Assembly: GCA_027492035.1 (NCBI GenBank)
Contig: JAOZFT010000004.1
Location: forward strand, 384,001 to 448,000
DNA length: 64,000 nucleotides
Direction of reading: 5' to 3'
DNA from: Thermoproteota archaeon
Lineage (GTDB): Archaea; Korarchaeota; JAOZGF01; JAOZFZ01
The translations under genes and the position numbers were made by a program. Of this stretch, positions 4,565 through 63,911 are shown one piece after another. Position 1 is the first letter of the stretch. Every line of letters begins with the position of its first letter. The notes under the pieces were generated by a model. The model had not been told where the DNA came from. It worked only from the letters and a program-made list of their open reading frames with translations, and did no database searches.

Positions 4565-6171
4565 ATTTTCTCCATTCCAAAAATGACTTTATCACCTTTT
4601 TTAAAACTCTTTTTATAACTTCCCATTATCTCTTTAAATGTTTCTTCAGAAATTTTCCAGTGGTTATTTTCCAAAGATTTCTTTAAAACAAAGAGGTCGG
4701 TTGAGAAATCCTCAATGTTGTTTGAGTGTTTACCTAAACCGAAATCTATCATAAAAATCGTTCCATTTTGCAAGATTACATTAGATGTAGTTAAATCACC
4801 ATGAATTAACCCTTTACTGTGAAGTTTAGCAACGTATTCCCCTAATTTTTTTGAAACTTTAGCTCTGGCTGTCCTATTTAACTGTTCTAAAACTTTACTT
4901 AGGGGAGGTCCCTCCAGATACTCCATTGTTAAAGTGCATCTCCTCAAATCTACGTCGTAAATGGTTGGTGTATGTATACCTAGAAGTTTGGCCTTATGGA
5001 GCAGAATGGCTTCTTCACGTGTCCTTGCTTTTCTCAGTTTCGCATCTAATGCTGAGTCTCTGTAATCTTTCTTCAACCTAACCTTCTTTATTGCTTCTAA
5101 ACCGAGCCATTTAGTCCGGTAAATAACCGCTTCTGCACCTACATCTATTATTTCTCCCTTTTTCTTTTTAAGCTGTGTTTCTCTTTCATTGCTCCACTTT
5201 ATTTCCACCTGATCTACTCTCCATTTTTGTTTTATTCTGCTTTTATCTAAGGTTATCCCCCCAGAAAATAAATATTTTAGTATTCCTGTCCAAGCTATCA
5301 TGGCGCCGTTGTCGACGCAATACTCTCTTTTCGGGACAAAGAAGCTGATTTCCCGTGCTTCACACATTTCTTTCAACATTTTCTGTAACCTTCTTGCTGA
5401 AGCTACTCCTCCGGTTAAGAGAAGTTCCTCCTTTTTTGTGTATGCTAATGCTCTTTCAGAAGCTTCTGTAACCATTGCGAAGCAGTTATGTTCGAAAGAG
5501 AAACATACATCGTGAACTTTTTCGCCATTCTTTATTTTTCTCTCAGCTTCTGTTAATAAACCGCTAAAGCTGAAATCCATCCCTTTTACAACATAAGGAA
5601 GATCAATCCATTTTCCTTTTTCTGCTAATTCATCTATCTTTGGCCCTGCTGGAAATTCTAGTCCTAAAATCCTGCCTAAACTGTCTATGGCATTCCCTAA
5701 AGCCACATCCAAAGTTTCACCAAAAACTTTGTATTTCCTTTCACTACAAGCTATTATTTGAGTGTTCCCTCCCGACACATAAACTATTAAAGGGTCTACG
5801 GCTCCAGTAGTTAACTTACCTATCTCTATGTGCGCTACTGCATGATTAACTCCAACTAGCGGCTTCTTTAGATTAGAGGCTAATGTCCTAGCAGCTATTG
5901 CCCCTATTCTTAAGCAGGGAGGAAGTCCTGGTCCCTGTGAAAATGCTATTAGGTCAATATCTTCAATTCCTTTCTTACTTACTTGCAAAGCTTTTTGCAG
6001 TAAAATTTTTAAATTTAACAAATGATTTTCAGCAGCTTTCCTGGGATGGATCCCCTCTCCCCTATAAGAAGTTTTCACATTTGCAAGTATTTTTCCTTGG
6101 GAGGACACTACCCCTATCCCTAGAGTGTGGGCAGTTGACTCTATACCTAGACAAGTTATTTCAGGTTTCAT
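4528..6171 (-). CDS. kae1: Fused Kae1 (t6A threonylcarbamoyltransferase)-Bud32 kinase
   Basis: GIESTAHT, HAVAHIE, VSGGNT, DNGAMIA, followed by kinase motifs GAEA, HGDLTTSN, IDFGL. Confidence 0.95.
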   Translation of the reverse strand: MKPEITCLGIESTAHTLGIGVVSSQGKILANVKTSYRGEGIHPRKAAENHLLNLKILLQKALQVSKKGIEDIDLIAFSQGPGLPPCLRIGAIAARTLASNLKKPLVGVNHAVAHIEIGKLTTGAVDPLIVYVSGGNTQIIACSERKYKVFGETLDVALGNAIDSLGRILGLEFPAGPKIDELAEKGKWIDLPYVVKGMDFSFSGLLTEAERKIKNGEKVHDVCFSFEHNCFAMVTEASERALAYTKKEELLLTGGVASARRLQKMLKEMCEAREISFFVPKREYCVDNGAMIAWTGILKYLFSGGITLDKSRIKQKWRVDQVEIKWSNERETQLKKKKGEIIDVGAEAVIYRTKWLGLEAIKKVRLKKDYRDSALDAKLRKARTREEAILLHKAKLLGIHTPTIYDVDLRRCTLTMEYLEGPPLSKVLEQLNRTARAKVSKKLGEYVAKLHSKGLIHGDLTTSNVILQNGTIFMIDFGLGKHSNNIEDFSTDLFVLKKSLENNHWKISEETFKEIMGSYKKSFKKGDKVIFGMEKIWRRGRYQKRTK

Positions 6172-6815
6172 TCTGCATCCTCTTTGTTTAAAACCTTAAG
6201 AATATCCTCCTTCTTTATTATCCCCTCTCGAATAACTTTTATCTCTCCCTTTGTTAAATCTACCACTGTAGATGGTTTCTTAATTTTTGTTTCGCCTCCA
6301 TCAAGGATTAAACTTACCTCCCCCTTCAACATTTTAAATGCTGAATACGCGTCAGTGGGTGGAGGTTGTCCTGTGATGTTTGCACTTGTAATAATTAAGG
6401 GGGTTTTGGTCTTCTTTATTAAAAACAATGGAATCCAGTGATTAGGCACCCTCAAAGCGATGTTTGAAGGGTTCACGACATCTGGCACATTTTTCTTTTT
6501 CTTTACAATTATTGTGAGGGGACCTGGTTGAAACCTTCTGAAGAGGGTTTTTGCGGTTTCAGTTAAGTAAGAATACTTTTCAGCCATTTCCATGTTCAAA
6601 ACTCCTATTGGCAACCATTTATTCCTTGGTCTTTTCTTTACTTCATATATTTTCTCTACAGCTTCCTCATTTATGGCGTTTACACCTAAGCCGTACACTG
6701 TATCCGTAGGGAAAACTATTGGTTCCCCTTTTTTCAATAATTTAACAGCGTAATTTAATATCTTTTCATCCCTGCTTCCTACCCAGGCAACTATGGTGTC
6801 AATCCCCTTTTCCAT
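6168..6815 (-). CDS. sua5: Threonylcarbamoyl-AMP synthase (TsaC/Sua5 YrdC domain)
   Basis: FPTDTVYGLG, KKRP, PGPLT, TSANITG. Confidence 0.93.
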   Translation of the reverse strand: MEKGIDTIVAWVGSRDEKILNYAVKLLKKGEPIVFPTDTVYGLGVNAINEEAVEKIYEVKKRPRNKWLPIGVLNMEMAEKYSYLTETAKTLFRRFQPGPLTIIVKKKKNVPDVVNPSNIALRVPNHWIPLFLIKKTKTPLIITSANITGQPPPTDAYSAFKMLKGEVSLILDGGETKIKKPSTVVDLTKGEIKVIREGIIKKEDILKVLNKEDAE

Positions 6816-14238: not shown

Positions 14239-14442
14239 ACCTAATCCCTCTCTATCCCCCCCATTTCATAAACATCGTCTAACAACAAGTACTTTTATTT
14301 TTTTAATTTTTCAACTACATACCTACTTATAACCTGTAAATAGGGTACTTGTTTTTTAGTATAGTCCATATGCTTTTTTTAGTTTCCACTTCACGCTTAG
14401 GCAAGTATGAATGGGAATACAAGCACTAAATTCAGAAATTGA

Positions 14443-14558
14443 TGCGGGGGGTGGGATTTGAACCCACGCAGAGCTTCTCACCAGGTTTCTAATGCCATCC
14501 TCATCCTGGCGCCTTTGGTCGTGCAATTTCCCCTTTGACCTGGCTCGGCAACCCCCGC
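14443..14558 (-). tRNA. tRNA-Leu(GAG) with two introns (D-loop 14515-14534, 20 nt; anticodon loop 14487-14498, 12 nt)
   Basis: GCGGGGG/CCCCCGC-A acceptor stem, long variable arm, GTGGG-TTCAAAT-CCCAC T-arm. The D-loop intron has a GGTC/GACC helix with AAA bulges. The anticodon call assumes a 37/38 intron, which gives an unusual A32. Confidence 0.85.
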
Positions 14559-14620
14559 AGCTTCAAACTTTGTCTGAAGTTGTATTTAAAAATATTTTTT
14601 AAAGGGTTATTTTTAAAGGT

Positions 14621-24310: not shown

Positions 24311-24733
24311 TCAAATATCCAATAACACATTGGCAACATATTTCTGGCCTGTTTTTTCCACTTTAAAATTGTGATAAGTTATTGCCTTAACTTCATTCCC
24401 TATTTCATGCTTCTTAAGGTTTACTTTTTCTCCCCTAATAACTCCCTTTAAAAAATATTTCCCTTTCCTTCTTTTTATTTCTATTTGGAAATCCTTAAAA
24501 AAACAGTTAAGGGTTTCAAAGAGATAAATTAACTCATTTAACCAGTTGTAAAGCAAATCCTCTACATTGTCTCCTTCTATTTCAATTTTAGTTTCCGTCT
24601 CGGTACCGACCTTGCTTAGGTTCGTCATAACCCCAAAAAGAGCTTTACCTGAATTAATGAAGAGCTGGGTTAAGTTTTTCCCGTAAGCTCTGAACCCCAC
24701 ATCTGCTGTGTGTCCAAAGTATTCGTAATTCAT
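24311..24733 (-). CDS. Archease (RtcB RNA ligase cofactor)
   Basis: YEYFGHTADV, EVKAITYH, C-terminal LDI. Confidence 0.94.
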   Translation of the reverse strand: MNYEYFGHTADVGFRAYGKNLTQLFINSGKALFGVMTNLSKVGTETETKIEIEGDNVEDLLYNWLNELIYLFETLNCFFKDFQIEIKRRKGKYFLKGVIRGEKVNLKKHEIGNEVKAITYHNFKVEKTGQKYVANVLLDI

Positions 24734-24797
24734 TCCTTCAAATTCACCATGTGAAACCTAGCCTGCAGTTCTCAGGTCATCTGAAAAGGCTAAAAAA

Positions 24798-24917
24798 CGC
24801 CGGGGGTGGGATTTTCCCCACGTGATTATGGATTTGAACCCACGCGGCTCCAAGAGCCACGGGCTTTCATTTTTAGACTCAAGGCCCGCGCCTTAATCCT
24901 GGCTCGGCAACCCCGGC
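24798..24917 (-). tRNA. tRNA-Ser(TGA) with two introns (anticodon loop ~24866-24877, 12 nt; T-loop 59/60 24812-24832, 21 nt)
   Basis: GCCGGGG acceptor, G73, CGGGC/GCCCG anticodon stem, long variable arm. T-loop BHB-like: TTCA-AAT-CCA..TGG-GGAA-AAT. Confidence 0.88.
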
Positions 24918-28477: not shown

Positions 28478-31400
28478 TCAGAAAGCTGCGTATAATTCAA
28501 CAGCCCCTGTGCCAACCTGTATGGGAACACCTGCTATAACTCTCTCTACCACACCAGGTAATTCATCCTCTTCGCCTTTTATAGCCGCCTCTGCCAAGGT
28601 CTTTACGGTTATTTCATAACTTGCTCTTGCTAAGAAGCTCCCCTTCTCTCCGGTAACTCCGTACCTGCCAACTTGTTTAAGGTCCCCTGTAAAGGTTAAA
28701 GTGTCAGCTGCTAGCAAAATATGTCTGATGTTTATTTTTATTCCTTGATTTTCTAAAACTGACTTTATTTCGTTTATGATAGCTGCTCTAGCCGCCTCTA
28801 TCCCAAGTTCGTTGTAGATTTCCAATATGTCATTAGTTGTTGTTCTATTCCTATCTACTCCTTCCATTTTTAAAACAACTTTTAAGTTTGATCCTTCGGT
28901 TTCGATCACATATTCTCCTGCCTTCTCTTTTATTAATGTTTTGGTTATTCCTTTGACACCGTAAACTGTTGTGTCTAAAAGTTTTGTGTAGGCTTCTTTA
29001 AATTTCCTATATGAATCTATTCCTGATTGTACAATTAACGAATTTCTTTCTTCTTTAACTTCTCCTTTCATTTTCTTAGAAATCATACTTTTTACTTTTT
29101 TCAAGTCTATTCCTTTTTGGTTGATTAACTCCTCTTTCAAGGTTAGAACCATTTCTCTACTCAAAGGTTCTATTTCGATTTTCTCTATTATATCCTTTAA
29201 TGTTAAAGATCTTATCTTCTCTGCTATCTTTAAAGCTTTATCTCGACTTTTTCTGTGCTCTTCATCCAAGTAAATAGTCATTGAAGGAGTGCTTGGTTTC
29301 TTTCTCATGTCAAGGACTTCTTTCAGCCTTGGAAAGCCTAATGTTATGTTTTTTTCTGCCACTCCTGCAAAGTGGAAGGTTCTTAGGGTTAGTTGAGTAC
29401 TGGGTTCTCCTATCGATTGGGCAGTTACTACTCCTATGGGTTCGAAGGGATCAACTAAGGCATGTAAGTAACTGTTTTTCACTGTTTTAAGGATTTTGGT
29501 TAATGTTTCTTTATTGATTTTGTGTTTGGTAACAATTTTTAGAGTTTCATTTCTTATTCTTTCCGGTAGATCTTTAAGCTCCTTTTCAACCAGTTTTTGT
29601 TTATTTTTGTTACTCATTCCCTTTTTCACTTTGTTTTCATCGTTTGCAATAGTTTCCTCTAATTCATTGAAAAGTACTGGTTCACCGTGGTAAGTTTTTG
29701 TCACATCCACTCCGTCGTCACCATAGAGGAAAGATATTATTTTTCCTTCTGAATCTCTTACTGTACCGTCATTTTCTATTCTTAAATCTTGGAAAGCATT
29801 CATCAACCTTCTTTGCAGGTATCCACTATCAGCAGTCCTTATCGCTTTGTCAACTAAACTTTCTCTTCCAGCCATGGCATGGAAATACAGTTCCGTAGGT
29901 GTTAATCCTCTTTTGTAGCTTGATTCAACAAAACCTCTGCTTTTTGCTCTCTTTTCGCCTTTTTTGAAGTGTGGAAGAGCTCTTCTGATATATCCTTCAG
30001 AGATACGTCTACCCCTTAACGATTGCTGCCCAACGCTTCCAGCCATTTGCCCTATATTTATAGCGCTTCCTTTAGCTTTTGTGGATGTCATTACAACTAT
30101 TGAGTTATCCACATCTAAACTTTTCGACACCTCCTTACCTATTTTTTCACGGCAATTGGAAAGTATTCCTCCAACTTTAATCTCCAACGTTTCTTCTTTT
30201 GTCCTTCCAGGCAGAGGCTGAAATTCTCCTTTATTGAACAATTCTAGCAATTTCTCTATTTCTCTGTAACCCTCAAGAATTATTTCTTTAACTTTTTCTT
30301 TGATTTCAGGTGGCAAGTCTTCTTCATCAAGTCCTAAAGTGAATCCTCTTCCACTTAAAAACCTTAAAGTAACTTTTGTGTATTTATTTAGGAATTCTCT
30401 AGCTCTTTCTCCTCCATATTTGTTGGCTATCACATCCAGCAGTGTCAATCCACTTTCGACTATCGCCCCTATAGCTGCTGTGTCTATTACACCTGTCAAT
30501 AATTCACCGTTCTTAACAATAACTACAGTATCCTCAATAAATTCTTCCCCTTCCTTTCCGGTTTCAGTTTTCGGGATGTAAACTGAAGCTTTAAGTTTAA
30601 AGTTTAAATCCTTTGGAAGAAGCAAGCTAAAGACTTGTTTACCTGTCCAATATTCTTTAGGCTCTAAAATGGCAGGTTCAGGTATTTCATCATAATCCAC
30701 AAGGGATGAAAGGAGGAGCCCCAGCTCCTTTTTGGAGAGAAGAGTATCCCTCCTTGTTAGTAGGTAAGATCCTGTGATATGATCTAGAATTCCCCCTACT
30801 AATGCCCCTCCGAACCTTGGAGAAATTATGTTTTTTTCAACAAGCATTAATTCTTCTGCTTCCACTCTTGAATCTAAAGTTTGAAGAGCATGGAGGTTCA
30901 TTTCATCTCCGTCGAAGTCTGCGTTGTAAGGTGGACAGACAGCAAGATTAAGTCTGAAAGTTTTATAGGGTAATACTTTAACTCGGTGACCCATCATCGA
31001 TATTCTATGGAGAGAGGGTTGTCTATTGAACAAAACCACGTCTCCATCCATTAAATACCTTCCTATTTTGTAACCTGGGGAAATATTTTCTGCGAAGGCT
31101 GCCAGATCTGAAATAAACCGTAAATCCACCTTCGTCCCATCTGTCCTCTCTACATATTTGGCTCCTGGATGGTTTTTTGGCCCTAAAGCAACTAAAGTTT
31201 TAGCTTCTTCAATATTTAACTCGCTTACTGTCACAGGGATAGTCAATGTTTTAGCTATTTCAAAAGGGACCCCTACTTCATTTATGTCAAGTAGAGGGTC
31301 TGGAGAAATAACTGTTCTAGCGGAAAAGTCCACTCTCTTGGCTGCCAAATTAGATCTGAATCTTCCTTCTTTGCCCTCAAGTCTTTGAGCTATCCCTTTT

Positions 31401-32287
31401 ATAGGTCTTTTTGTTCTATGCTTGGCTGACGGCACTCCTGAAAGATTGTTATCGAAATAAGTTGCTACATGGTACTGTAAAAGGTTCCATAAATCATCAA
31501 TTATGTGCTGAGGTGTTCCACTGTCTATTGATTCCCTTAAGTTGTTGTTAACCCTTACTATGTCCACCAGTTTATGTGTTAAATCATCTTCTGCTCTTCC
31601 TCCTTTTTCAAGCACTATTGAGGGCCTAACGGGGAGCGGAGGAACTGGTAAATCTGTCAGAACCATCCACTCAGGCCGGTTGTTTTCGATGTCAAACCCT
31701 AACAAGTAAGCGTCTTCATCAGGTATTTCTTCCAGTCTTTCTCTCACATCTGAGGCAGTTAGGTTTATTGGCCCCTGCGGCGTAATTTCTCTGTAATGGT
31801 AAGGTGGAATAAACTTAATTTTGTTTTGTTTAGCTCCACAGTTTGGGCATTTCTGGGTTTTACTTACTGCCTTACTTTTTATTTCCTTTATTATTTCGTC
31901 CCTTTTATTCTGGTTTTTTGTAGTCTGCAACAACTTCAAATACTTTTCTCTTTCCTCCTTAGGTATCTTTACTTTATGGCATTCCTTGCAAGTAGCCTTT
32001 AAAATATTAGCTATTTCTCTTGCAAAAAGTACGTTTATGACGGGTTTCGCAAGCTCTATATACCCAAAATGACCTGGACATTTCTCTATTGACCCACCGC
32101 ATGTTCTACATAAATATCTAGGCTCCAAGACCCCTAGTCTTGGATCCATTACACCTGATTCAACAGGCAAGCCGTCAGTGTCATATGTTTTCGGCAAAAC
32201 AATTTTTGTTGCAGCCATTTTTCTTATATCTGTGGGGCTCAATAAACTTAACTTCAGCGATTTTATGTGCCGCTTGTGCAAAATCAA
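28478..32287 (-). CDS. rpoA: RNA polymerase largest subunit, unsplit A'+A'' (Rpo1)
   Basis: NADFDGDEMN followed in the same ORF by the A'' motif AQSIGEPSTQLTLRTFH. Confidence 0.97.
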   Translation of the reverse strand: MILHKRHIKSLKLSLLSPTDIRKMAATKIVLPKTYDTDGLPVESGVMDPRLGVLEPRYLCRTCGGSIEKCPGHFGYIELAKPVINVLFAREIANILKATCKECHKVKIPKEEREKYLKLLQTTKNQNKRDEIIKEIKSKAVSKTQKCPNCGAKQNKIKFIPPYHYREITPQGPINLTASDVRERLEEIPDEDAYLLGFDIENNRPEWMVLTDLPVPPLPVRPSIVLEKGGRAEDDLTHKLVDIVRVNNNLRESIDSGTPQHIIDDLWNLLQYHVATYFDNNLSGVPSAKHRTKRPIKGIAQRLEGKEGRFRSNLAAKRVDFSARTVISPDPLLDINEVGVPFEIAKTLTIPVTVSELNIEEAKTLVALGPKNHPGAKYVERTDGTKVDLRFISDLAAFAENISPGYKIGRYLMDGDVVLFNRQPSLHRISMMGHRVKVLPYKTFRLNLAVCPPYNADFDGDEMNLHALQTLDSRVEAEELMLVEKNIISPRFGGALVGGILDHITGSYLLTRRDTLLSKKELGLLLSSLVDYDEIPEPAILEPKEYWTGKQVFSLLLPKDLNFKLKASVYIPKTETGKEGEEFIEDTVVIVKNGELLTGVIDTAAIGAIVESGLTLLDVIANKYGGERAREFLNKYTKVTLRFLSGRGFTLGLDEEDLPPEIKEKVKEIILEGYREIEKLLELFNKGEFQPLPGRTKEETLEIKVGGILSNCREKIGKEVSKSLDVDNSIVVMTSTKAKGSAINIGQMAGSVGQQSLRGRRISEGYIRRALPHFKKGEKRAKSRGFVESSYKRGLTPTELYFHAMAGRESLVDKAIRTADSGYLQRRLMNAFQDLRIENDGTVRDSEGKIISFLYGDDGVDVTKTYHGEPVLFNELEETIANDENKVKKGMSNKNKQKLVEKELKDLPERIRNETLKIVTKHKINKETLTKILKTVKNSYLHALVDPFEPIGVVTAQSIGEPSTQLTLRTFHFAGVAEKNITLGFPRLKEVLDMRKKPSTPSMTIYLDEEHRKSRDKALKIAEKIRSLTLKDIIEKIEIEPLSREMVLTLKEELINQKGIDLKKVKSMISKKMKGEVKEERNSLIVQSGIDSYRKFKEAYTKLLDTTVYGVKGITKTLIKEKAGEYVIETEGSNLKVVLKMEGVDRNRTTTNDILEIYNELGIEAARAAIINEIKSVLENQGIKINIRHILLAADTLTFTGDLKQVGRYGVTGEKGSFLARASYEITVKTLAEAAIKGEEDELPGVVERVIAGVPIQVGTGAVELYAAF

Positions 32288-35963: not shown

Positions 35964-36054
35964 TGGGCCCGGCGGGATTTTCAGATTCCTCCCTTTGAAC
36001 CCGCGACACCCGGGTTAAAAGCCCGGTGCTCTAGCCTTGCTGAGCTACGGGCCC
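35964..36054 (-). tRNA. tRNA-Lys(TTT) with a 16-nt T-loop (59/60) intron at 35978-35993
   Basis: CCGGG-CTTTTAA-CCCGG anticodon arm. BHB: TTCA/TGAA helix with AAG and AAT bulges. Confidence 0.93.
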
Positions 36055-36118: not shown

Positions 36119-36237
36119 TCCCGTCGGCAGGATTTGAACCTGCGAACCTGCCGGTTTCTGCATGGGCGACTGCTGTCGAAACCTCCTCCTCTAGAGGTTT
36201 CTACAGCCGGCCGCTCTACCAACTGAGCTACGACGGG
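36119..36237 (-). tRNA. tRNA-Tyr(GTA) with a 45-nt 37/38 intron at 36156-36200
   Basis: C1-G72, A73, GCCGG-CTGTAG|A-CCGGC, CTGT/GCAG central helix. Confidence 0.93.
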
Positions 36238-38389: not shown

Positions 38390-38404
38390 AATCTTCTCAT
38401 CTCT

Positions 38405-38660
38405 CTAGCTCTCTCGTTGAGGAGTTCCCCTCGGGAGGATGTGATCATGAGGGGTGAGAAATTTTAATTCTTCTTCTGTTGGGTAAGTTTGTGTAGGGCT
38501 GGGGTAGTCCAAAACCGCTCCTGTGGAGGCTGAAATCTCTACGGCCCGCCTTCCACACAGGTTGTAGAGAAGGAGTTCCACTTGCTGAAACCTCCATTGT
38601 GAATGGAGGAAAATCATGCTTGGTTGCTGAAGTAGAAAACCTTCTATGAAGGTTGGGTAA
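38405..38660. ncRNA. Candidate structured non-coding element of unknown class
   Basis: GC-richer intergenic stretch with at least 4 hairpins. No convincing protein or known RNA family recognised. Confidence 0.35.
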
Positions 38661-38661
38661 T

Positions 38662-39294
38662 TCATACACTTACACCTACTTCTGTTTCAAAATCTTTGGC
38701 TGTTAAGTTAATCTCTCCATCGGGCGGTATCTCCCCTCTCTCCCTTAAAATTTGCCGCGCTAAAACCCAGTAAATTAATGCTAAAGATTTTCTGCCTTTG
38801 TTGTTAGCTGGAATTATGAAATCAACAAAAGTTGTTTGATTATTTGTGTCACAAAGGGCTATAACCATTATCCCTTCCTTAGCCGCTTCAATCATTACTC
38901 TTTTATCGAGTTTTGGATCTGAAATAAACACAACTTCTGGTTCTATGTAGTCCTCTGAAAGATAGTTAGTGAATTTTCCAGGTGGAGTTCTGCCAGCTAC
39001 AGCTTGGAAACCTGTTATTTCACTGAATTTCTTCACAGGTTTTAAAGCATAAATTCTGGAGGAAGTTACAAATACTTCTCCTGGTTTAAATCTTGCTAAA
39101 TATTTTGCAGCCACTCTAATTCTTTCATCTATCTTCCTTATATTTAAAACATAAAGGCCGTCTGGTCTTAAAGAGTAAATGAATTTTCGCATGGGTTTAG
39201 TAGCTATCTTTGTCCCTATATGTACCCCTGCCTTTAAATAAACACTTCTTTCCACTAAAAAGGTGTATCTTTCCTTTCTGCTTTCTGTAGGCAT
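38662..39294 (-). CDS. rps2: 30S ribosomal protein S2
   Basis: AGVHIGTK, RPDGLYVLN, IPANNKGRKSLA. Confidence 0.97.
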   Translation of the reverse strand: MPTESRKERYTFLVERSVYLKAGVHIGTKIATKPMRKFIYSLRPDGLYVLNIRKIDERIRVAAKYLARFKPGEVFVTSSRIYALKPVKKFSEITGFQAVAGRTPPGKFTNYLSEDYIEPEVVFISDPKLDKRVMIEAAKEGIMVIALCDTNNQTTFVDFIIPANNKGRKSLALIYWVLARQILRERGEIPPDGEINLTAKDFETEVGVSV

Positions 39295-39532
39295 TTATTC
39301 ACCTTCGTTTTCTTCTCTTTTTTCGTAGGCTAATATTTCATCTGCCAAGTCTAAATGTGTCAAAAACATCCTTCTGCAGCAGTATCTTTTTATTCCTAAT
39401 TCATCTAAGGCTTCTTTTTTACTTTTCCCTTGCTTAAGTAATTTAAGGTAATCCTCCCAAAGATGACCTATAAGTTTTCCACAGGTGAAGCACCTTCCGC
39501 GTCATTCAACATGACTTTACGGGTATATGCAT
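39295..39532 (-). CDS. rpoN: RNA polymerase subunit N (Rpo10), 71 aa, split by a 22-nt BHB intron; join(39517..39532,39295..39494)
   Basis: Spliced product: [21 protein letters not shown]...GIKRYCCRRMFLTH... Conserved position between rps9 and rps2. Missing from the ORF track because the unspliced frame stops at codon 9. Confidence 0.93.
39495..39516 (-). other. BHB mRNA intron in rpoN
   Basis: mRNA UAC-CCGU-AA^A-GUCAU-GUUGA-AUGAC-GCGG-AA^G-GUG: 4-bp central helix, two 3-nt bulges, 5-bp inner helix. Confidence 0.9.
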
Positions 39533-39548
39533 CCCTAAACCCCCTTTT

Positions 39549-39971
39549 TTATCTTTTCGATTTCTGGAACCTCGCTCTTGCTCCTCTCCCTCCGAATTTC
39601 TTGCTTTCTTTCAATCTTGCATCTTCAACTAACATAAACCTGTCATATTCTAAGAATTTATTTTTTAAGGTTTCTCTCGTTTTTTCATCCTTAATCCATT
39701 TAAGAAGAGCTCTTGAAATAGCTACTTGAACTGCTTCAGCTTGTCCCATGTAACCTCCCCCCTTGGCTTTAGCCTTTATGTCTATATTCTTTGTAATTTC
39801 CTCCCCAGCTAATAAAAGGGGCTCCATTATTTTCCATTTCGCAATTTCAGGTTGAAATATCTCAAGTGGGATATTGTTTATTTTTACCTTCCCTTTCCCT
39901 TTTTTAATCGTAACAGAAGCTCTTGCTGTCTTTCTTTTTGCACTTGCGAAAACAAATTCTCCGTTTACCAT
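39549..39971 (-). CDS. rps9: 30S ribosomal protein S9
   Basis: KRKTARA, GGGYMGQAEA, KKFGGRGARARFQKS. Confidence 0.97.
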   Translation of the reverse strand: MVNGEFVFASAKRKTARASVTIKKGKGKVKINNIPLEIFQPEIAKWKIMEPLLLAGEEITKNIDIKAKAKGGGYMGQAEAVQVAISRALLKWIKDEKTRETLKNKFLEYDRFMLVEDARLKESKKFGGRGARARFQKSKR

Positions 39972-39974
39972 TCC

Positions 39975-40430
39975 TTAACTCATCCTCCAATCGCTCGTTA
40001 GCTCCGCTATCTCCCTTAAAGTTATCGTAGAACTTCTTACACTTAATTTTGAACTGGTTAATGAATCCACTTTCTCTTTTTTAACATTTTCAAGTTCTGC
40101 AGGTACCCCTAAAAAAACTCTTAACATTTTGTATGCCTGTCTCCCCTTCCCCTTTTTGTAAGGAAGCATTCCTCTAACTGTTCTCTTAAACAACCTATCT
40201 GGTCTTGCATAGTAAAATGGCCCTTTTCGAGGGTTAGCGAGGTTTTTTCTCCATTTCCTCTTTAAATACTCCCTTAAAACCTTTTGCCTCTTTCCACTCA
40301 CTACTATTTTTTCTGCATTAACTACAGCCACTTTTTTACCGTTTAACAACTTTTTTGCTACATATGAAGCCAATCTGCCCAGTATTGTTTGCTCTCCATC
40401 CAGTACAATGTCGAAATTCACTTTGTTCAC
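39975..40430 (-). CDS. rpl13: 50S ribosomal protein L13
   Basis: ILGRLAS, VNAEK, RTVRGMLP. Confidence 0.97.
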   Translation of the reverse strand: MNKVNFDIVLDGEQTILGRLASYVAKKLLNGKKVAVVNAEKIVVSGKRQKVLREYLKRKWRKNLANPRKGPFYYARPDRLFKRTVRGMLPYKKGKGRQAYKMLRVFLGVPAELENVKKEKVDSLTSSKLSVRSSTITLREIAELTSDWRMS

Positions 40431-40789
40431 CTTAAAATTTTAATATTTGATCCCTTAGGGTTTAATTCGGCAATTTCTGTCAGTTTTAAAGCTCTTCCTT
40501 TTGCCTCCACTATTTTCTCAACTGCCCTTTTTGAGAAGGAGTAAGCTGCTACATTCACTTCATGTTTCAGGGTTCCCCCACCAAGTACCTTACCAGGCAC
40601 TATCACATATTCTCCTTTACCAGTTAATCTATCTATTTTACTTAAGTTCACCACTATCCTCTTTCTTTTGCTCCTTGAAAGGAGTTCAGCTACTCTTCTC
40701 CAGATCTTAGCCTTTTCTTCCCTTGATTTCATTTTAAGGAATGTTATCAACTCTTTCAGTTCTTCACTGGCAGGTTCTTTCTTTACCAA
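40427..40789 (-). CDS. rpl18e: 50S ribosomal protein L18e
   Basis: IWRRVAE, VNLSKI, VPGKVLG.G, NPKGS. Confidence 0.96.
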   Translation of the reverse strand: MVKKEPASEELKELITFLKMKSREEKAKIWRRVAELLSRSKRKRIVVNLSKIDRLTGKGEYVIVPGKVLGGGTLKHEVNVAAYSFSKRAVEKIVEAKGRALKLTEIAELNPKGSNIKILR

Positions 40790-49114: not shown

Positions 49115-49457
49115 ACCGTATAGATTTCACTCTCCATGTGTCTTTGCGCCATGTAAAGATACAAAGGCTGTTTCATGAGGTGCATGTTGAAAAGGCTGAG
49201 GAAGTTGTTGAAAGAAAAACAAAAATCAAGGAAACGGTGAAAAACATAATTGGGAGGGTGGCATGCTATCTGTAGAATCTCCTGAAAAGGTTACGTTAAA
49301 AAATGAAAGAATCCGTGAGCAAAGAAGGGTCCACAGCCCTTTATCATATTTTAAAAGAATGAAAGTTATGTCAAAACACAATTTCTCATTACGCAAAAAA
49401 GGGTGTAATGAAGAAAGTTAAGTAATGCGTTAGACAAGCCTAATTATATAAGGAGGA

Positions 49458-49549
49458 CGCCCCGGGCGGGATTTGAACCCACGTCAATGGCTCGACAGGC
49501 CATTATGCTCTCCGTTTTCGGTTTTAAAGCCGGGCTACACCACCGGGGC
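49458..49549 (-). tRNA. tRNA-Asp(GTC) with a ~16-nt D-arm intron (~49508-49523)
   Basis: GCCCCGG/CCGGGGC-G acceptor, ATGGC-CTGTCGA-GCCAT anticodon arm, 92 nt total. Intron boundaries are approximate. Confidence 0.88.
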
Positions 49550-58895: not shown

Positions 58896-60032
58896 TTGGA
58901 AAATATGTCAGAGGTTAAAAAAATGGCGGAAGCCGAAGTTACTTTAAGCGGTGAACTAAAAGGGAGAAAGGTATTCTTAGAAGGTCCAAAAAAGTCCATA
59001 CAAGAGTACATAAATAAAGGCTTTGGTTATTGGGAGGCTGACTCTGAAACTTTAGAGCTTCACCTCATAGAAGCCCTTTATCTCCTAGAAAAAAATAAGA
59101 TAAATCTTTATAAAGGGGAAAAACAGTTGGAAAGGAGCGATTTACTTAATGAATTGAAGGAGAACGAAAATGATTTCTTAAGATACCTTGTTTACAAAGA
59201 TTTAAGGGATAGAGGGAGGATAGTAAAGATTGGACCCTTAGATTTCCTTAGGCTCTTTGTTGGCCAGTATAAACCTGAGGATTCTGTTTCAAGATATTTT
59301 ATTTTCGCTTTATCTGAAGAAAAGCCTATGCTGTTTCAAACACTTACGAAGTTAATAAACGAAAGCTCGAAACTTAGGAAAGAACTACTGTTAGCCATAG
59401 TCAACGATGAAGGAATAATCTCTTACTATGTTACACGGAAAATAGATATTTTATCAATTGATGTTCCACATTTAGATTTTGAAAATGTTGAAGCTTACCT
59501 GTACGGTGACCGTTTAGTCATTTGGAACATAGAAAAAGCCAGAGAACTGTATGAGAAAGGTTTTTTCGGGCATCCGATAGGGATAAGGAAACCTAAATCC
59601 TTTGAGTTTGAACAACCATCTCTCCTGTCTCTCTACGAAGCCCATTACTTGCTGAAAAAGAAAAAAATAAAAGTCATCGACCCAAAAAACGGTAAAGAAC
59701 TGGATCTGGAATCTTTCGTAGAGAAAGCTAAAAGTTTAAGGGAAAGGTTTGACATACGTTGTCAAGTATATGACTACTGGCGTGACAAGGGCTATGTGGT
59801 GAAAAGTGGTTCACTGTACGGTGTAGACTTTATAATCTATTTAAGAGGCCCTGGAATGGATGAACATTCAAAGTACATGAACCATGTTTATTCAGAAAGT
59901 TCAAGTTTCATACCCTTAGAAATTATTAGGGCGGGAAGAGTAGCTACTACTGTAAGGAAAAAACTAATCTTATCTTTATTAAACAAAAAGGGGGAGATAA
60001 ACTTTTACAAGTTTTCTTGGCATAAACCTTAA
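58896..60032 (+). CDS. endA: tRNA-splicing endonuclease EndA, two-unit (structural plus catalytic) fusion
   Basis: Two EndA repeats (LIEALYL..YLVYKDLRDRG; LYEAHYL..VY..WRDKGYVVKSG..YGVDF). Catalytic Y/H/K present only in the C-terminal unit. Confidence 0.93.
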   Translation: MENMSEVKKMAEAEVTLSGELKGRKVFLEGPKKSIQEYINKGFGYWEADSETLELHLIEALYLLEKNKINLYKGEKQLERSDLLNELKENENDFLRYLVYKDLRDRGRIVKIGPLDFLRLFVGQYKPEDSVSRYFIFALSEEKPMLFQTLTKLINESSKLRKELLLAIVNDEGIISYYVTRKIDILSIDVPHLDFENVEAYLYGDRLVIWNIEKARELYEKGFFGHPIGIRKPKSFEFEQPSLLSLYEAHYLLKKKKIKVIDPKNGKELDLESFVEKAKSLRERFDIRCQVYDYWRDKGYVVKSGSLYGVDFIIYLRGPGMDEHSKYMNHVYSESSSFIPLEIIRAGRVATTVRKKLILSLLNKKGEINFYKFSWHKP

Positions 60033-63816: not shown

Positions 63817-63911
63817 TGGACCGGGTGGGATTTGAACCCACGACCTCCGCGAATCTGCTTTAAAGATTTAAATCGCCAACGCGGCGTTCATTCCAACTGA
63901 ACTACCGGCCC
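63817..63911 (-). tRNA. tRNA-Ala(GGC) with a 21-nt 37/38 intron at 63853-63873
   Basis: GGGCCGG/CCGGTCC-A acceptor with G3-U70, CCGCG-TTGGCG|T-CGCGG anticodon arm. Confidence 0.9.

What the first reader, a model, noticed from the sequence alone, without database searches (positions are those of the whole stretch)
39495..39516. Second mRNA BHB intron, hiding the RNA polymerase subunit gene rpoN
Seen in sequence: no RpoN ORF is called at its conserved site between rps9 and rps2. The minus strand reads ATG CAT ATA CCC GTA A-[AGTCATGTTGAATGACGCGGAA]-GG TGC TTC ACC TGT GGA. The 22-nt insert has an in-frame TGA and forms a BHB (CCGU/GCGG helix, AAA and AAG bulges, GUCAU/AUGAC inner stem). Canonical cleavage restores [12 protein letters not shown], the Rpo10 Zn-binding motif, in a 71-aa protein with CCRRM. 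Rpo10 is a core RNAP subunit, so a pseudogene is unlikely. Automated annotation would score this gene as missing or truncated.
Basis: partly seen in the sequence, partly recalled or inferred. Interest (0 to 1): 0.93.

Follow-up and report, generated by a model that had tools for sequence, protein, structure and literature searches.

The report
tRNA-type intron splitting archaeal rpoN
A 22-base insert shaped like the introns that archaea cut out of tRNAs interrupts the only gene for a core RNA polymerase subunit, so this messenger RNA most likely has to be spliced, which has been documented for only one other archaeal protein gene.

Summary
On the minus strand, between rps9 and rps2, an rpoN (Rpo10) gene is broken after 16 bases by a 22-nt insert (39495-39516). 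The insert carries an in-frame TGA and shifts the frame. It can fold as a canonical bulge-helix-bulge (BHB) motif, and cutting after the second base of each 3-nt bulge removes exactly the 22 nt needed to restore the conserved N-terminus. It is the only rpoN in a 93%-complete genome.

The decisive new evidence is comparative. A genome of another genus in the same family (G001) has a 22-nt insert at the identical site. Seven of its 22 bases differ. Four of those seven form two compensatory pairs in the inner stem, and no change breaks a pair. A genome of the same order (G002) and about 190 other rpoN loci are uninterrupted.

The genome encodes EndA, RtcB and archease. Its cbf5 gene carries the classical mRNA BHB intron, so mRNA splicing is already required in this lineage.

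No RNA data could be obtained, and thermodynamic folding does not single out the canonical outer helix.

Verdict: a real, conserved BHB intron in a new host gene. Confidence about 0.85. It is a new member of a known but very rare kind.

The parts
39549..39971 (-). rps9 (ribosomal protein S9). It is the upstream cistron of the L18e-L13-S9-RpoN-S2 gene row.
   Evidence: ORF. PF00380 at 132.6 bits. L13 and L18e lie upstream.
39517..39532 (-). rpoN exon 1. It holds the ATG, four more codons (M H I P V) and the first base (A) of the Arg codon.
   Evidence: Sequence. Relatives have P-[VI]-R directly before CFTCG in 172 + 14 loci.
39495..39516 (-). 22-nt BHB intron. It consists of the last base of the 5' bulge, the inner stem-loop (39515-39501), the 3' strand of the central helix GCGG (39500-39497) and the first two bases of the 3' bulge.
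   Evidence: G001 has a 22-nt counterpart at L032 1484-1505.
39491..39525 (-). The whole hBHBh' motif:
- outer helix UAC/GUG (39525-39523 with 39493-39491)
- central helix CCGU/GCGG (39522-39519 with 39500-39497)
- bulges AAA (39518-39516) and AAG (39496-39494)
- inner stem GUCAU/AUGAC with loop GUUGA
   Evidence: The MFE holds the central helix, both triplets and the inner stem. In one search, 24 of 24 cells pair in the named structure.
39295..39494 (-). rpoN exon 2. It holds GG of the Arg codon, 65 codons (CFTCGK ... CCRRM ...) and the TAA stop, which abuts the rps2 ATG.
   Evidence: translation. PF01194 at 94.4 bits, profile 6-58/58, and 96.5 bits in the genome search.
38662..39294 (-). rps2 (ribosomal protein S2), the downstream cistron.
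   Evidence: PF00318 at 75.9 bits.
58896..60032 (+). EndA, the RNA-splicing endonuclease presumed to cut the intron. It is one 378-aa ORF with two tandem endonuclease units.
   Evidence: One search gives two PF01974 matches in one open frame. One search gives PF01974 at 128.1 bits and PF02778 at 95 bits, two stretches each. In one search residues 200-378 match catalytic subunits (2cv8_A, 3p1z_B) and the N-terminal half matches 2zyz_A and 3iey_B.
24311..24733 (-). Archease, the cofactor of the RtcB ligase that would rejoin the exons. RtcB itself lies 5.5 kb beyond the window at G000:C9:453481-454788.
   Evidence: PF01951 at 156.9 bits over the whole profile. RtcB PF01139 at 578.2 bits.

Best explanation
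The 22 nt at 39495-39516 are an archaeal bulge-helix-bulge (BHB) intron inside the coding region of rpoN (Rpo10), the 71-codon zinc-binding subunit of RNA polymerase.

Inferred mechanism, none of it shown at the RNA level:
1. The L18e-L13-S9-RpoN-S2 gene row is transcribed.
2. The 5' end of the rpoN cistron folds into helix, 3-nt bulge, 4-bp helix, 3-nt bulge, helix.
3. The genome's two-unit EndA cuts after the second base of each bulge.
4. RtcB, with archease, joins the exons.
5. The junction rebuilds an AGG arginine codon and puts M-H-I-P-V in frame with CFTCGK and the rest of the protein.

Unspliced RNA can only give an 8-residue peptide.

The intron arose in, or before, the common ancestor of two genera of one family. 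It has since been kept under selection for its pairing.
For: 1. Exact anatomy. Cleavage after the second bulge base on both sides removes exactly 39516-39495 and restores the frame and the conserved Arg. The chance of this register is about 1e-4.

2. Conservation with compensation. G001 (same family, other genus) has a 22-nt insert at the same codon position.
- 15 of 22 intron bases are identical although synonymous sites of exon 2 are saturated (dN 0.178, dS not computable; 46 of 56 residues identical).
- Of the 7 differences, 4 make two compensatory pairs (U-A to C-G, A-U to G-C), 2 lie in the loop and 1 lies in a bulge. None breaks a pair.
- 24 of 24 cells pair, against 12-50% when the partner is slid by 1-3 columns.
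- The intronic GCGG that pairs with exonic CCGU is invariant.

3. The gene is needed and single. There is 1 PF01194 match in G000 (93.3% complete) and 1 in G001. Exon 2 is intact and under purifying selection.

4. The insert is lineage-specific and not a general feature.
- G002 (same order) reads ATG CTC ATA CCG GTA AGA TGC without an insert.
- 38 of 40 matches start at profile position 1. Only G000 (5-58) and G001 (6-58) do not.
- In some searches, 186 loci have P-[VI]-R directly before CFTCG, 2 have variant residues and no insert, and only G000 and G001 are interrupted.
- Pattern scans of the 43 genomes of the phylum and of 401 genomes of the phylum of G043 found no further interrupted rpoN.

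5. The machinery is present: EndA, RtcB and archease.

6. A positive control exists in the same genome. cbf5 of G000, G001 and G002 is interrupted by 23, 15 and 15 nt between the first and second letter of the catalytic Asp codon, within BHB-like folds. That is the site published for crenarchaeal cbf5 introns (PMC2738675, Methods passage seen).

7. A single ribosomal frameshift cannot rescue G000. The exon-1 frame closes at 39508-39506, before the exon-2 frame opens after 39504-39502.
Against: - No RNA evidence of any kind exists, and both genomes are metagenome-assembled.
- Only two sequences carry the intron, so the covariation statistic is weak. 118 of 500 column shuffles reach the observed score. 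The two compensatory pairs lie in the inner stem, which alternative folds share.
- Thermodynamic prediction does not single out the canonical motif.
  - In G000 the MFE (-18.0 kcal/mol) keeps the central helix and both triplets but uses another outer pairing. The bare canonical structure scores -8.2.
  - In G001 the MFE (-18.9) replaces the central helix with a longer outer helix. The canonical BHB scores -13.1.
- Fold z-scores are modest: -1.97 and -2.60.
- The outer helix in G000 is only 3 bp and includes a G-U.
- EndA specificity for this substrate is untested.
- About 7% of the genome is unassembled, so a second rpoN cannot be strictly excluded.
Confidence: 0.85

Rival explanations
1. Pseudogene or assembly/sequencing artefact. 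The 22 nt are an insertion that killed rpoN, or an assembly error, and nothing removes them.
For: The gene as written has no usable ORF. Both genomes are MAGs, and no reads could be inspected.
Against: - An independently assembled genome of another genus has an insert of the same length at the same base with 7 substitutions. This excludes an assembly error.
- Exon 2 is intact in both, with dN 0.178 against saturated synonymous sites.
- rpoN is single-copy in both genomes, and 40 of 41 related genomes have the gene.
- All stem substitutions are compensatory.
Confidence: 0.03
2. Translational recoding. The ribosome bypasses or frameshifts over the insert, and the RNA is not spliced.
For: The insert holds a stem-loop followed by a stop codon, as bypassing sites do (recalled from phage T4 gene 60, not tested here). 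In G001 the exon-2 frame is open back to the GTA A position, so a +1 shift there is formally possible.
Against: - In G000 the two frames are never open together. The exon-1 frame closes at TGA 39508-39506 and the exon-2 frame opens only after TGA 39504-39502. No single shift works.
- There is no matching take-off and landing codon pair flanking the 22 nt (read).
- A shift in G001 would replace the conserved Arg by 8 unrelated residues.
- Recoding does not explain why the boundaries coincide with BHB cleavage sites.
Confidence: 0.03
3. EndA cuts at the BHB but the product is not religated into a coding mRNA. The motif would be a processing or decay site that separates the S9 and S2 cistrons, and RpoN would be dispensable or supplied otherwise.
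For: BHB sites serve pure processing in rRNA precursors (PMC7714728, passages seen). The motif sits inside a polycistronic gene row.
Against: - Exon 2 has been kept as an intact, conserved RpoN reading frame without a start codon of its own in two genera. That only makes sense if it is joined to exon 1.
- The length and register restore the frame exactly.
- RtcB and archease are present.
Confidence: 0.05

Closest known systems
cbf5 pre-mRNA BHB intron of Crenarchaeota (Desulfurococcales and Sulfolobales). Sources: Yokobori et al. 2009, PMC2738675, abstract and passages read; Watanabe et al. 2002, known to me only through citations.
   Same: [quoted passage not shown]
- It is bounded by a BHB motif.
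- Predicted cleavage falls between the 2nd and 3rd bulge residues.
- It interrupts a codon for an essential conserved residue.
- It is lineage-specific, with gain or loss.
- The same genome studied here also has a cbf5 intron at the published site.
   Different: - The host gene differs: an RNA polymerase subunit, not the pseudouridine synthase.
- There is no sequence similarity to the genome's own cbf5 intron or to anything else in the genome.
- The motif is a canonical hBHBh', whereas most cbf5 introns are described as unconventional BHB (passage).
- It lies only 16 nt after the start codon, in an internal cistron of a ribosomal-protein gene row.
- The host is a rare class in a 43-genome phylum, not the Crenarchaeota studied so far.
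- cbf5 splicing was confirmed by cDNA. This one is not.
Archaeal tRNA and rRNA BHB introns cut by EndA and ligated by RtcB
   Same: It has the same structural signal and the same presumed enzymes. Its size is in the range of tRNA introns (11-175 nt, passage). This genome is rich in intron-bearing tRNA genes: 3 tRNA matches of 91-119 nt in the window, and ARAGORN finds none.
   Different: The substrate is an mRNA, so the reading frame must be preserved and splicing has to compete with translation. No tRNA body is there to help recognition.
BHB intron in the 5' UTR of HVO_1309 mRNA of Haloferax volcanii (Schwarz et al. 2020, PMC7714728, passages read)
   Same: It is an mRNA substrate of the splicing endonuclease, with a BHB motif near the 5' end of the message.
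   Different: That one lies in the untranslated leader and does not interrupt the coding frame. It was verified in vivo and in vitro. The present one is inside the ORF and is unverified.
IRE1/RtcB unconventional splicing of HAC1/XBP1 mRNA in eukaryotes (established knowledge; mentioned in PMC13149111, passage)
   Same: It works alike. A protein endonuclease recognises RNA structure, a short intron is excised, an RtcB-type ligase joins the exons, and a frame change yields the functional protein.
   Different: The endonuclease is unrelated (IRE1), the stem-loop signals differ, and that splicing is stress-regulated. This is an analogy of mechanism only, not membership.

Membership tests
Archaeal BHB (EndA-dependent) intron | Two 3-nt bulges on opposite strands separated by a 4-bp helix | tested here: met
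   CCGU/GCGG flanked by AAA and AAG (G000) or AAA and AGG (G001). All 4 central pairs form in both sequences. The G000 MFE contains them. Caveat: the G001 MFE prefers another fold by 5.8 kcal/mol.
Archaeal BHB (EndA-dependent) intron | Flanking helices on both sides (canonical hBHBh') | tested here: met
   The outer helix is 3 bp in G000 and 5 bp in G001. The inner stem is 5 and 6 bp. The G000 outer helix is weak, and RNAfold chooses a different outer pairing.
Archaeal BHB (EndA-dependent) intron | Cleavage after the 2nd base of each bulge yields a functional joined product | tested here: met
   In silico only. Removing 39516-39495 rebuilds an AGG Arg codon and the conserved P-V-R-C-F-T-C-G context. 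The same holds in G001.
Archaeal BHB (EndA-dependent) intron | Pairing maintained by compensatory change among homologues | tested here: inconclusive
   There are 2 compensatory pairs and no disruption, and the structure beats all slid versions. With only 2 sequences, 118 of 500 shuffles do as well.
Archaeal BHB (EndA-dependent) intron | Splicing endonuclease and RNA ligase encoded by the host | tested here: met
   EndA, RtcB, archease.
Archaeal BHB (EndA-dependent) intron | Spliced RNA or excised (circular) intron observed | not testable with these tools
   No sequencing run was listed for the locus, so no reads could be laid.
RNA polymerase subunit N / Rpo10 (Pfam PF01194) | Match to the family profile above the curated cut-off | tested here: met
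   Exon 2 alone scores 94.4 bits against a cut-off of 26.9, over profile 6-58 of 58. The five missing profile positions correspond to exon 1.
RNA polymerase subunit N / Rpo10 (Pfam PF01194) | Zinc-binding cysteines (CxxC near the N-terminus plus CC further on; motif recalled) | tested here: met
   CFTC and CCRR are present in exon 2. Both are conserved in G001 and G002.
cbf5-type mRNA intron (homologous family of Crenarchaeota) | Located in the catalytic Asp codon of cbf5 | tested here: not met
   The rpoN intron is in a different gene and shares no sequence with the genome's cbf5 intron. It works like that intron but is not a member of that homologous set.

The most novel reading that the evidence does not exclude
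In this deep-branching class, BHB introns have moved beyond tRNA, rRNA and cbf5 into the core transcription machinery. The rpoN intron lies 16 nt after the start codon of an internal cistron. It would act as an obligatory gate that ties production of an RNA polymerase assembly subunit, and possibly translation of the abutting rps2 cistron, to the capacity of the tRNA-splicing enzymes EndA, RtcB and archease. More such mRNA introns would await discovery in this lineage.
Probability: 0.25. Interest if true: 0.85.

Novelty: new member of a known kind. Interest (0 to 1): 0.72.

Why it matters
In the papers I could search, cbf5 is the only archaeal protein-coding gene with a BHB intron. Schwarz et al. 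2020 (PMC7714728) state this explicitly. The 2019 and 2025 EndA papers (PMC6379350, PMC12397907) cite only the cbf5 work for pre-mRNA.

A second host gene, and an essential RNA polymerase subunit at that, shows that splicing of messenger RNA by the tRNA machinery is not a peculiarity of one gene. It gives a second, independent case for asking how an intron is removed from an mRNA in cells where translation starts on nascent transcripts.

There is also a practical side. Gene callers will report rpoN as missing or truncated in these genomes. That distorts completeness estimates and subunit inventories of uncultivated archaea.

The substrate is small (about 60 nt) and the enzyme gene lies in the same window, so the claim can be tested directly at the bench.

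Tried and rejected
**Sequencing runs.** For window 38700-40400 none was listed, so no reads were laid. This says nothing about expression.

**Genome-wide ab initio screens for further mRNA introns.**
- Loose and strict BHB scans were combined with open-frame tests across the junction, with start-less downstream frames and with a codon-usage score.
- None had power. Counts for real motifs equalled those for random positions or the reversed genome (17,352 vs 17,410; 1,749 vs 1,770; 208 vs 162; 21 vs 24).
- The last filter even lost rpoN itself.
- Candidates that looked good were false. Window 6110-6195 is the Sua5/Kae1-Bud32 gene boundary. G000:C2:6181-6203 lies in a continuous ORF.

**The 'first' mRNA intron implied by the finding's title.**
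- I inspected start-less frames and gaps of the window and ran Pfam on 27 more window ORFs, after 3.
- No other interrupted gene was seen. L24e and S12 read intact; an S27ae-like frame on the + strand was read by eye only.
- I did not scan every ORF.

**Copies of the intron elsewhere in the genome.** None was found (blastn-short), so there is no sign of recent transposition from a tRNA intron.

**Rfam.** Gathering and E<=0.01 thresholds over the window gave nothing at the locus.

**Wider pattern scan.**
- All 49 strings were read. 12 places were already held (L204-L215) and 28 more were fetched (L216-L243); all 40 were translated.
- 7 were RpoN, all uninterrupted. The rest were chance matches.
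- The pattern demands ATHCCNRT and TGYTTYWSNTGYGG, so introns at other rpoN positions or in divergent genes would be missed.

**Literature.**
- 'rpoN + intron + archaea + BHB' gave 0 papers.
- Supplements are closed, and Additional file 1 of PMC2738675 (intron sizes) was not seen.
- Subscription papers (Watanabe 2002; Yoshinari 2006) were not read.

**Not attempted.** Structure prediction, complex prediction and the large protein searches were not used, because the question did not need them.

Full report
**What is in the sequence**

On the minus strand the window carries the gene row L18e (40427-40789), L13 (39975-40430), S9 (39549-39971) and S2 (38662-39294), all confirmed by Pfam.

Sixteen bases after the S9 stop comes the rpoN start:
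- ATG at 39532-39530 is followed by CAT ATA CCC GTA A.
- Then come 22 nt (39516-39495), then GG TGC TTC ACC TGT GGA.
- From the ATG the frame runs into a TGA inside the insert (39508-39506).
- The downstream frame is open for 65 codons, from the Cys codon at 39492 to a TAA that abuts the S2 start. It has its own TGA at 39504-39502 and no start codon before residue 41.
- Those 65 codons match RNA_pol_N (PF01194) at 94.4 bits over profile positions 6-58 of 58.

**Is it a BHB motif, and is that more than chance?**

Archaeal EndA recognises a 4-bp helix flanked by two 3-nt bulges on opposite strands. It cuts after the second residue of each bulge. This rule is quoted in PMC2738675.

Here CCGU (exon 1) pairs with GCGG (the 3' end of the insert). 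The parts are:
- AAA on the 5' side and AAG on the 3' side are the bulges.
- GUCAU/AUGAC closes a 5-nt loop.
- UAC/GUG can form the outer helix.

Cutting after the second base of each bulge removes exactly 39516-39495. It joins A to GG, which rebuilds an AGG arginine codon in the context P-V-R-C-F-T-C-G.

RNAfold's minimum-energy structure of 39480-39535 contains the central helix, both triplets and the inner stem (-18.0 kcal/mol, z = -1.97).

A BHB-like fold by itself means little in this 36.6% G+C genome:
- My strict motif occurs 17,352 times in the genome and 17,410 times in the reversed genome.
- At a fixed length of 22 nt it occurs at 4.3e-5 per position.
- What is improbable (about 1e-4) is that it falls in one of the three equivalent registers that restore the frame.

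**Comparative evidence**

The genome (G000: 1.87 Mb, 42 contigs, 93.3% complete) has one PF01194 match.

Among 41 related genomes, 40 have the gene. Of those 40 matches, 38 begin at profile position 1. The two exceptions are G000 (5-58) and G001 (6-58). G001 belongs to the same family but another genus.

G001 reads ...ATA ATA CCC GTA A, then 22 nt, then GG TGT TTC ACC TGT GG (L032 1484-1505). The insert has the same length and lies at the same base.

The seven intron positions that differ fall as follows:

| Differences | Location |
|---|---|
| 4 | two compensatory pairs in the inner stem (U-A to C-G, A-U to G-C) |
| 2 | the loop |
| 1 | the 3' bulge |
| 0 | any position that breaks a pair |

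Further points:
- All 24 pair cells form standard pairs, against 12-50% when the 3' partner is slid by 1-3 columns.
- The intronic GCGG is invariant.
- Synonymous sites of exon 2 are saturated between the two genomes while the protein is conserved (46 of 56 residues, dN 0.178).
- Against that background, 15 of 22 identical intron bases indicate constraint on the intron.
- Exon 2 is clearly still a working gene.

G002, the only other genome of the order and class, has an uninterrupted ATG CTC ATA CCG GTA AGA TGC.

**How far does the intron reach?**

- The search for related loci returned the 80 closest rpoN loci from species genomes and 80 from metagenomes.
- Together with the loci, 186 have P-[VI]-R directly before CFTCG. 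Two have variant residues without an insert. One locus could not be parsed. Only G000 and G001 are interrupted.
- A pattern for an insert of 8-120 nt at this site hit rpoN only in G000 and G001 among the 43 genomes of the phylum. The 2 other hits, in G031, lie on contigs other than its rpoN.
- In 401 genomes of the phylum of G043 the pattern gave 49 strings. None is an interrupted rpoN. 40 places were translated. 7 were RpoN, all intact.

So the intron was not found outside one family among the genomes searched. The pattern would miss introns elsewhere in the gene.

**The machinery and an internal control**

The splicing enzymes are encoded:
- The window encodes a 378-aa EndA with two tandem endonuclease units.
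  - The C-terminal unit is most like crenarchaeal catalytic subunits.
  - The N-terminal unit is most like the structural subunits 2zyz_A and 3iey_B.
- The window also encodes archease.
- RtcB lies 5.5 kb beyond the window.

The same three genomes also carry an interrupted cbf5:

| Genome | Insert length |
|---|---|
| G000 | 23 nt |
| G001 | 15 nt |
| G002 | 15 nt |

- Each insert sits between the first and second letter of the catalytic Asp codon of G-T-L-D-P.
- Each lies in a BHB-like fold. Its removal restores the conserved sequence.
- That is the published site of the crenarchaeal cbf5 intron (PMC2738675).
- The same paper lists Ca. Korarchaeum cryptofilum as having none.

The lineage therefore already depends on splicing of an mRNA by this pathway.

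**Alternatives**

- **Assembly error.** Excluded by G001.
- **Pseudogene.** Contradicted by the purifying selection on exon 2, the single copy and the compensatory changes.
- **Ribosomal frameshifting.** It cannot work in G000, because the exon-1 frame closes before the exon-2 frame opens. In G001 it would replace the conserved Arg by eight unrelated residues.
- **Bypassing.** No matched take-off and landing codons flank the insert.
- **Pure processing site without ligation.** This would leave a conserved, start-less RpoN frame unexplained.

**Weak points**

- There is no RNA evidence. No run was listed, and this is recorded only as something tried.
- Two sequences give a weak covariation statistic. 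118 of 500 shuffles do as well.
- The covarying pairs lie in the inner stem, which competing folds share.
- Energy minimisation does not favour the canonical outer helix in G000. In G001 it prefers a longer outer helix over the central helix (-18.9 against -13.1 kcal/mol).
- Enzyme binding, temperature and co-transcriptional folding are not modelled.

**Comparison with what is known, and novelty**

- Schwarz et al. 2020 state that the only BHB intron reported in an archaeal mRNA besides their 5'-UTR case is that of cbf5 (PMC7714728).
- Yokobori et al. 2009 say that splicing was not confirmed for any gene other than cbf5. Putative introns elsewhere were only predicted, in a rudivirus and in Sulfolobus genomes.
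- The 2019 and 2025 EndA papers cite only the cbf5 work for pre-mRNA.
- Seven full-text searches found nothing on an rpoN intron. Supplements and subscription papers were not seen.

The rpoN intron works like the cbf5 intron and like tRNA introns, but it is not homologous to them. I file it as a new member of a known, very rare kind.

**Taxonomy**

- The class holds 3 species-level genomes and the phylum 43.
- The tool's record titles call the relatives merely 'Thermoproteota archaeon'.
- One genome of the same phylum carries an isolate label beginning 'Kor'.
- rpoA is unsplit.
- From this I infer, without a direct test, a Korarchaeota-like phylum.

**Verdict**

Confidence that this is an EndA-spliced BHB intron of rpoN is about 0.85. 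Interest is 0.72, because the finding is comparatively well supported and readily testable, but so far without RNA proof.

Noticed in passing
L203 1494-1516 (= G000:C9:310022-310044, 74 kb before the window); L201 1547-1561 (G001); L202 1547-1561 (G002): cbf5 is interrupted in all three genomes of the class by 23, 15 and 15 nt. The insert lies between the 1st and 2nd letter of the catalytic Asp codon (G-T-L-D-P), in BHB-like folds. This is the published crenarchaeal cbf5 intron site. The literature lists Ca. Korarchaeum cryptofilum as lacking it.
   Followed up: yes
window 14380-14560 (-), 24740-24900 (-), about 49430-49540 (-); also 35964-36054, 36119-36237, 63817-63911 (-): The window holds many intron-bearing tRNA genes.
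- ARAGORN finds none, and Rfam finds only three (91-119 nt long).
- By eye, at least three more tRNA-like genes carry inserts.
- One has about 21 nt inside the 3' strand of the T stem, a non-canonical position.
- This is notable because the EndA is a two-unit fused enzyme.
   Followed up: partly
window 58896-60032 (+): EndA is a single 378-aa ORF. Its N-terminal half resembles the structural (beta-type) subunits 2zyz_A and 3iey_B. Its C-terminal half resembles crenarchaeal catalytic subunits. It looks like a fused beta-alpha arrangement. Its substrate range is unknown.
   Followed up: partly
window 38400-38640: There is a stretch with 51% G+C, against 36.6% for the genome, between rps2 and the Memo-like gene. 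It holds only implausible ORFs and gives no Rfam match at E<=0.01. It may be an undescribed structured RNA.
   Followed up: no
window 28478-32287 (-): The largest RNA polymerase subunit is one unsplit 1269-aa ORF with Rpb1 domains 1-5. It is not split into the A' and A'' genes usual in archaea (that this split is usual is recalled). RpoH and RpoB lie directly upstream.
   Followed up: partly
window 24311-24733 (-): The archease gene sits between the S10/tRNA region and the L3 operon, within 35 kb of EndA and about 45 kb from RtcB on the same contig.
   Followed up: no
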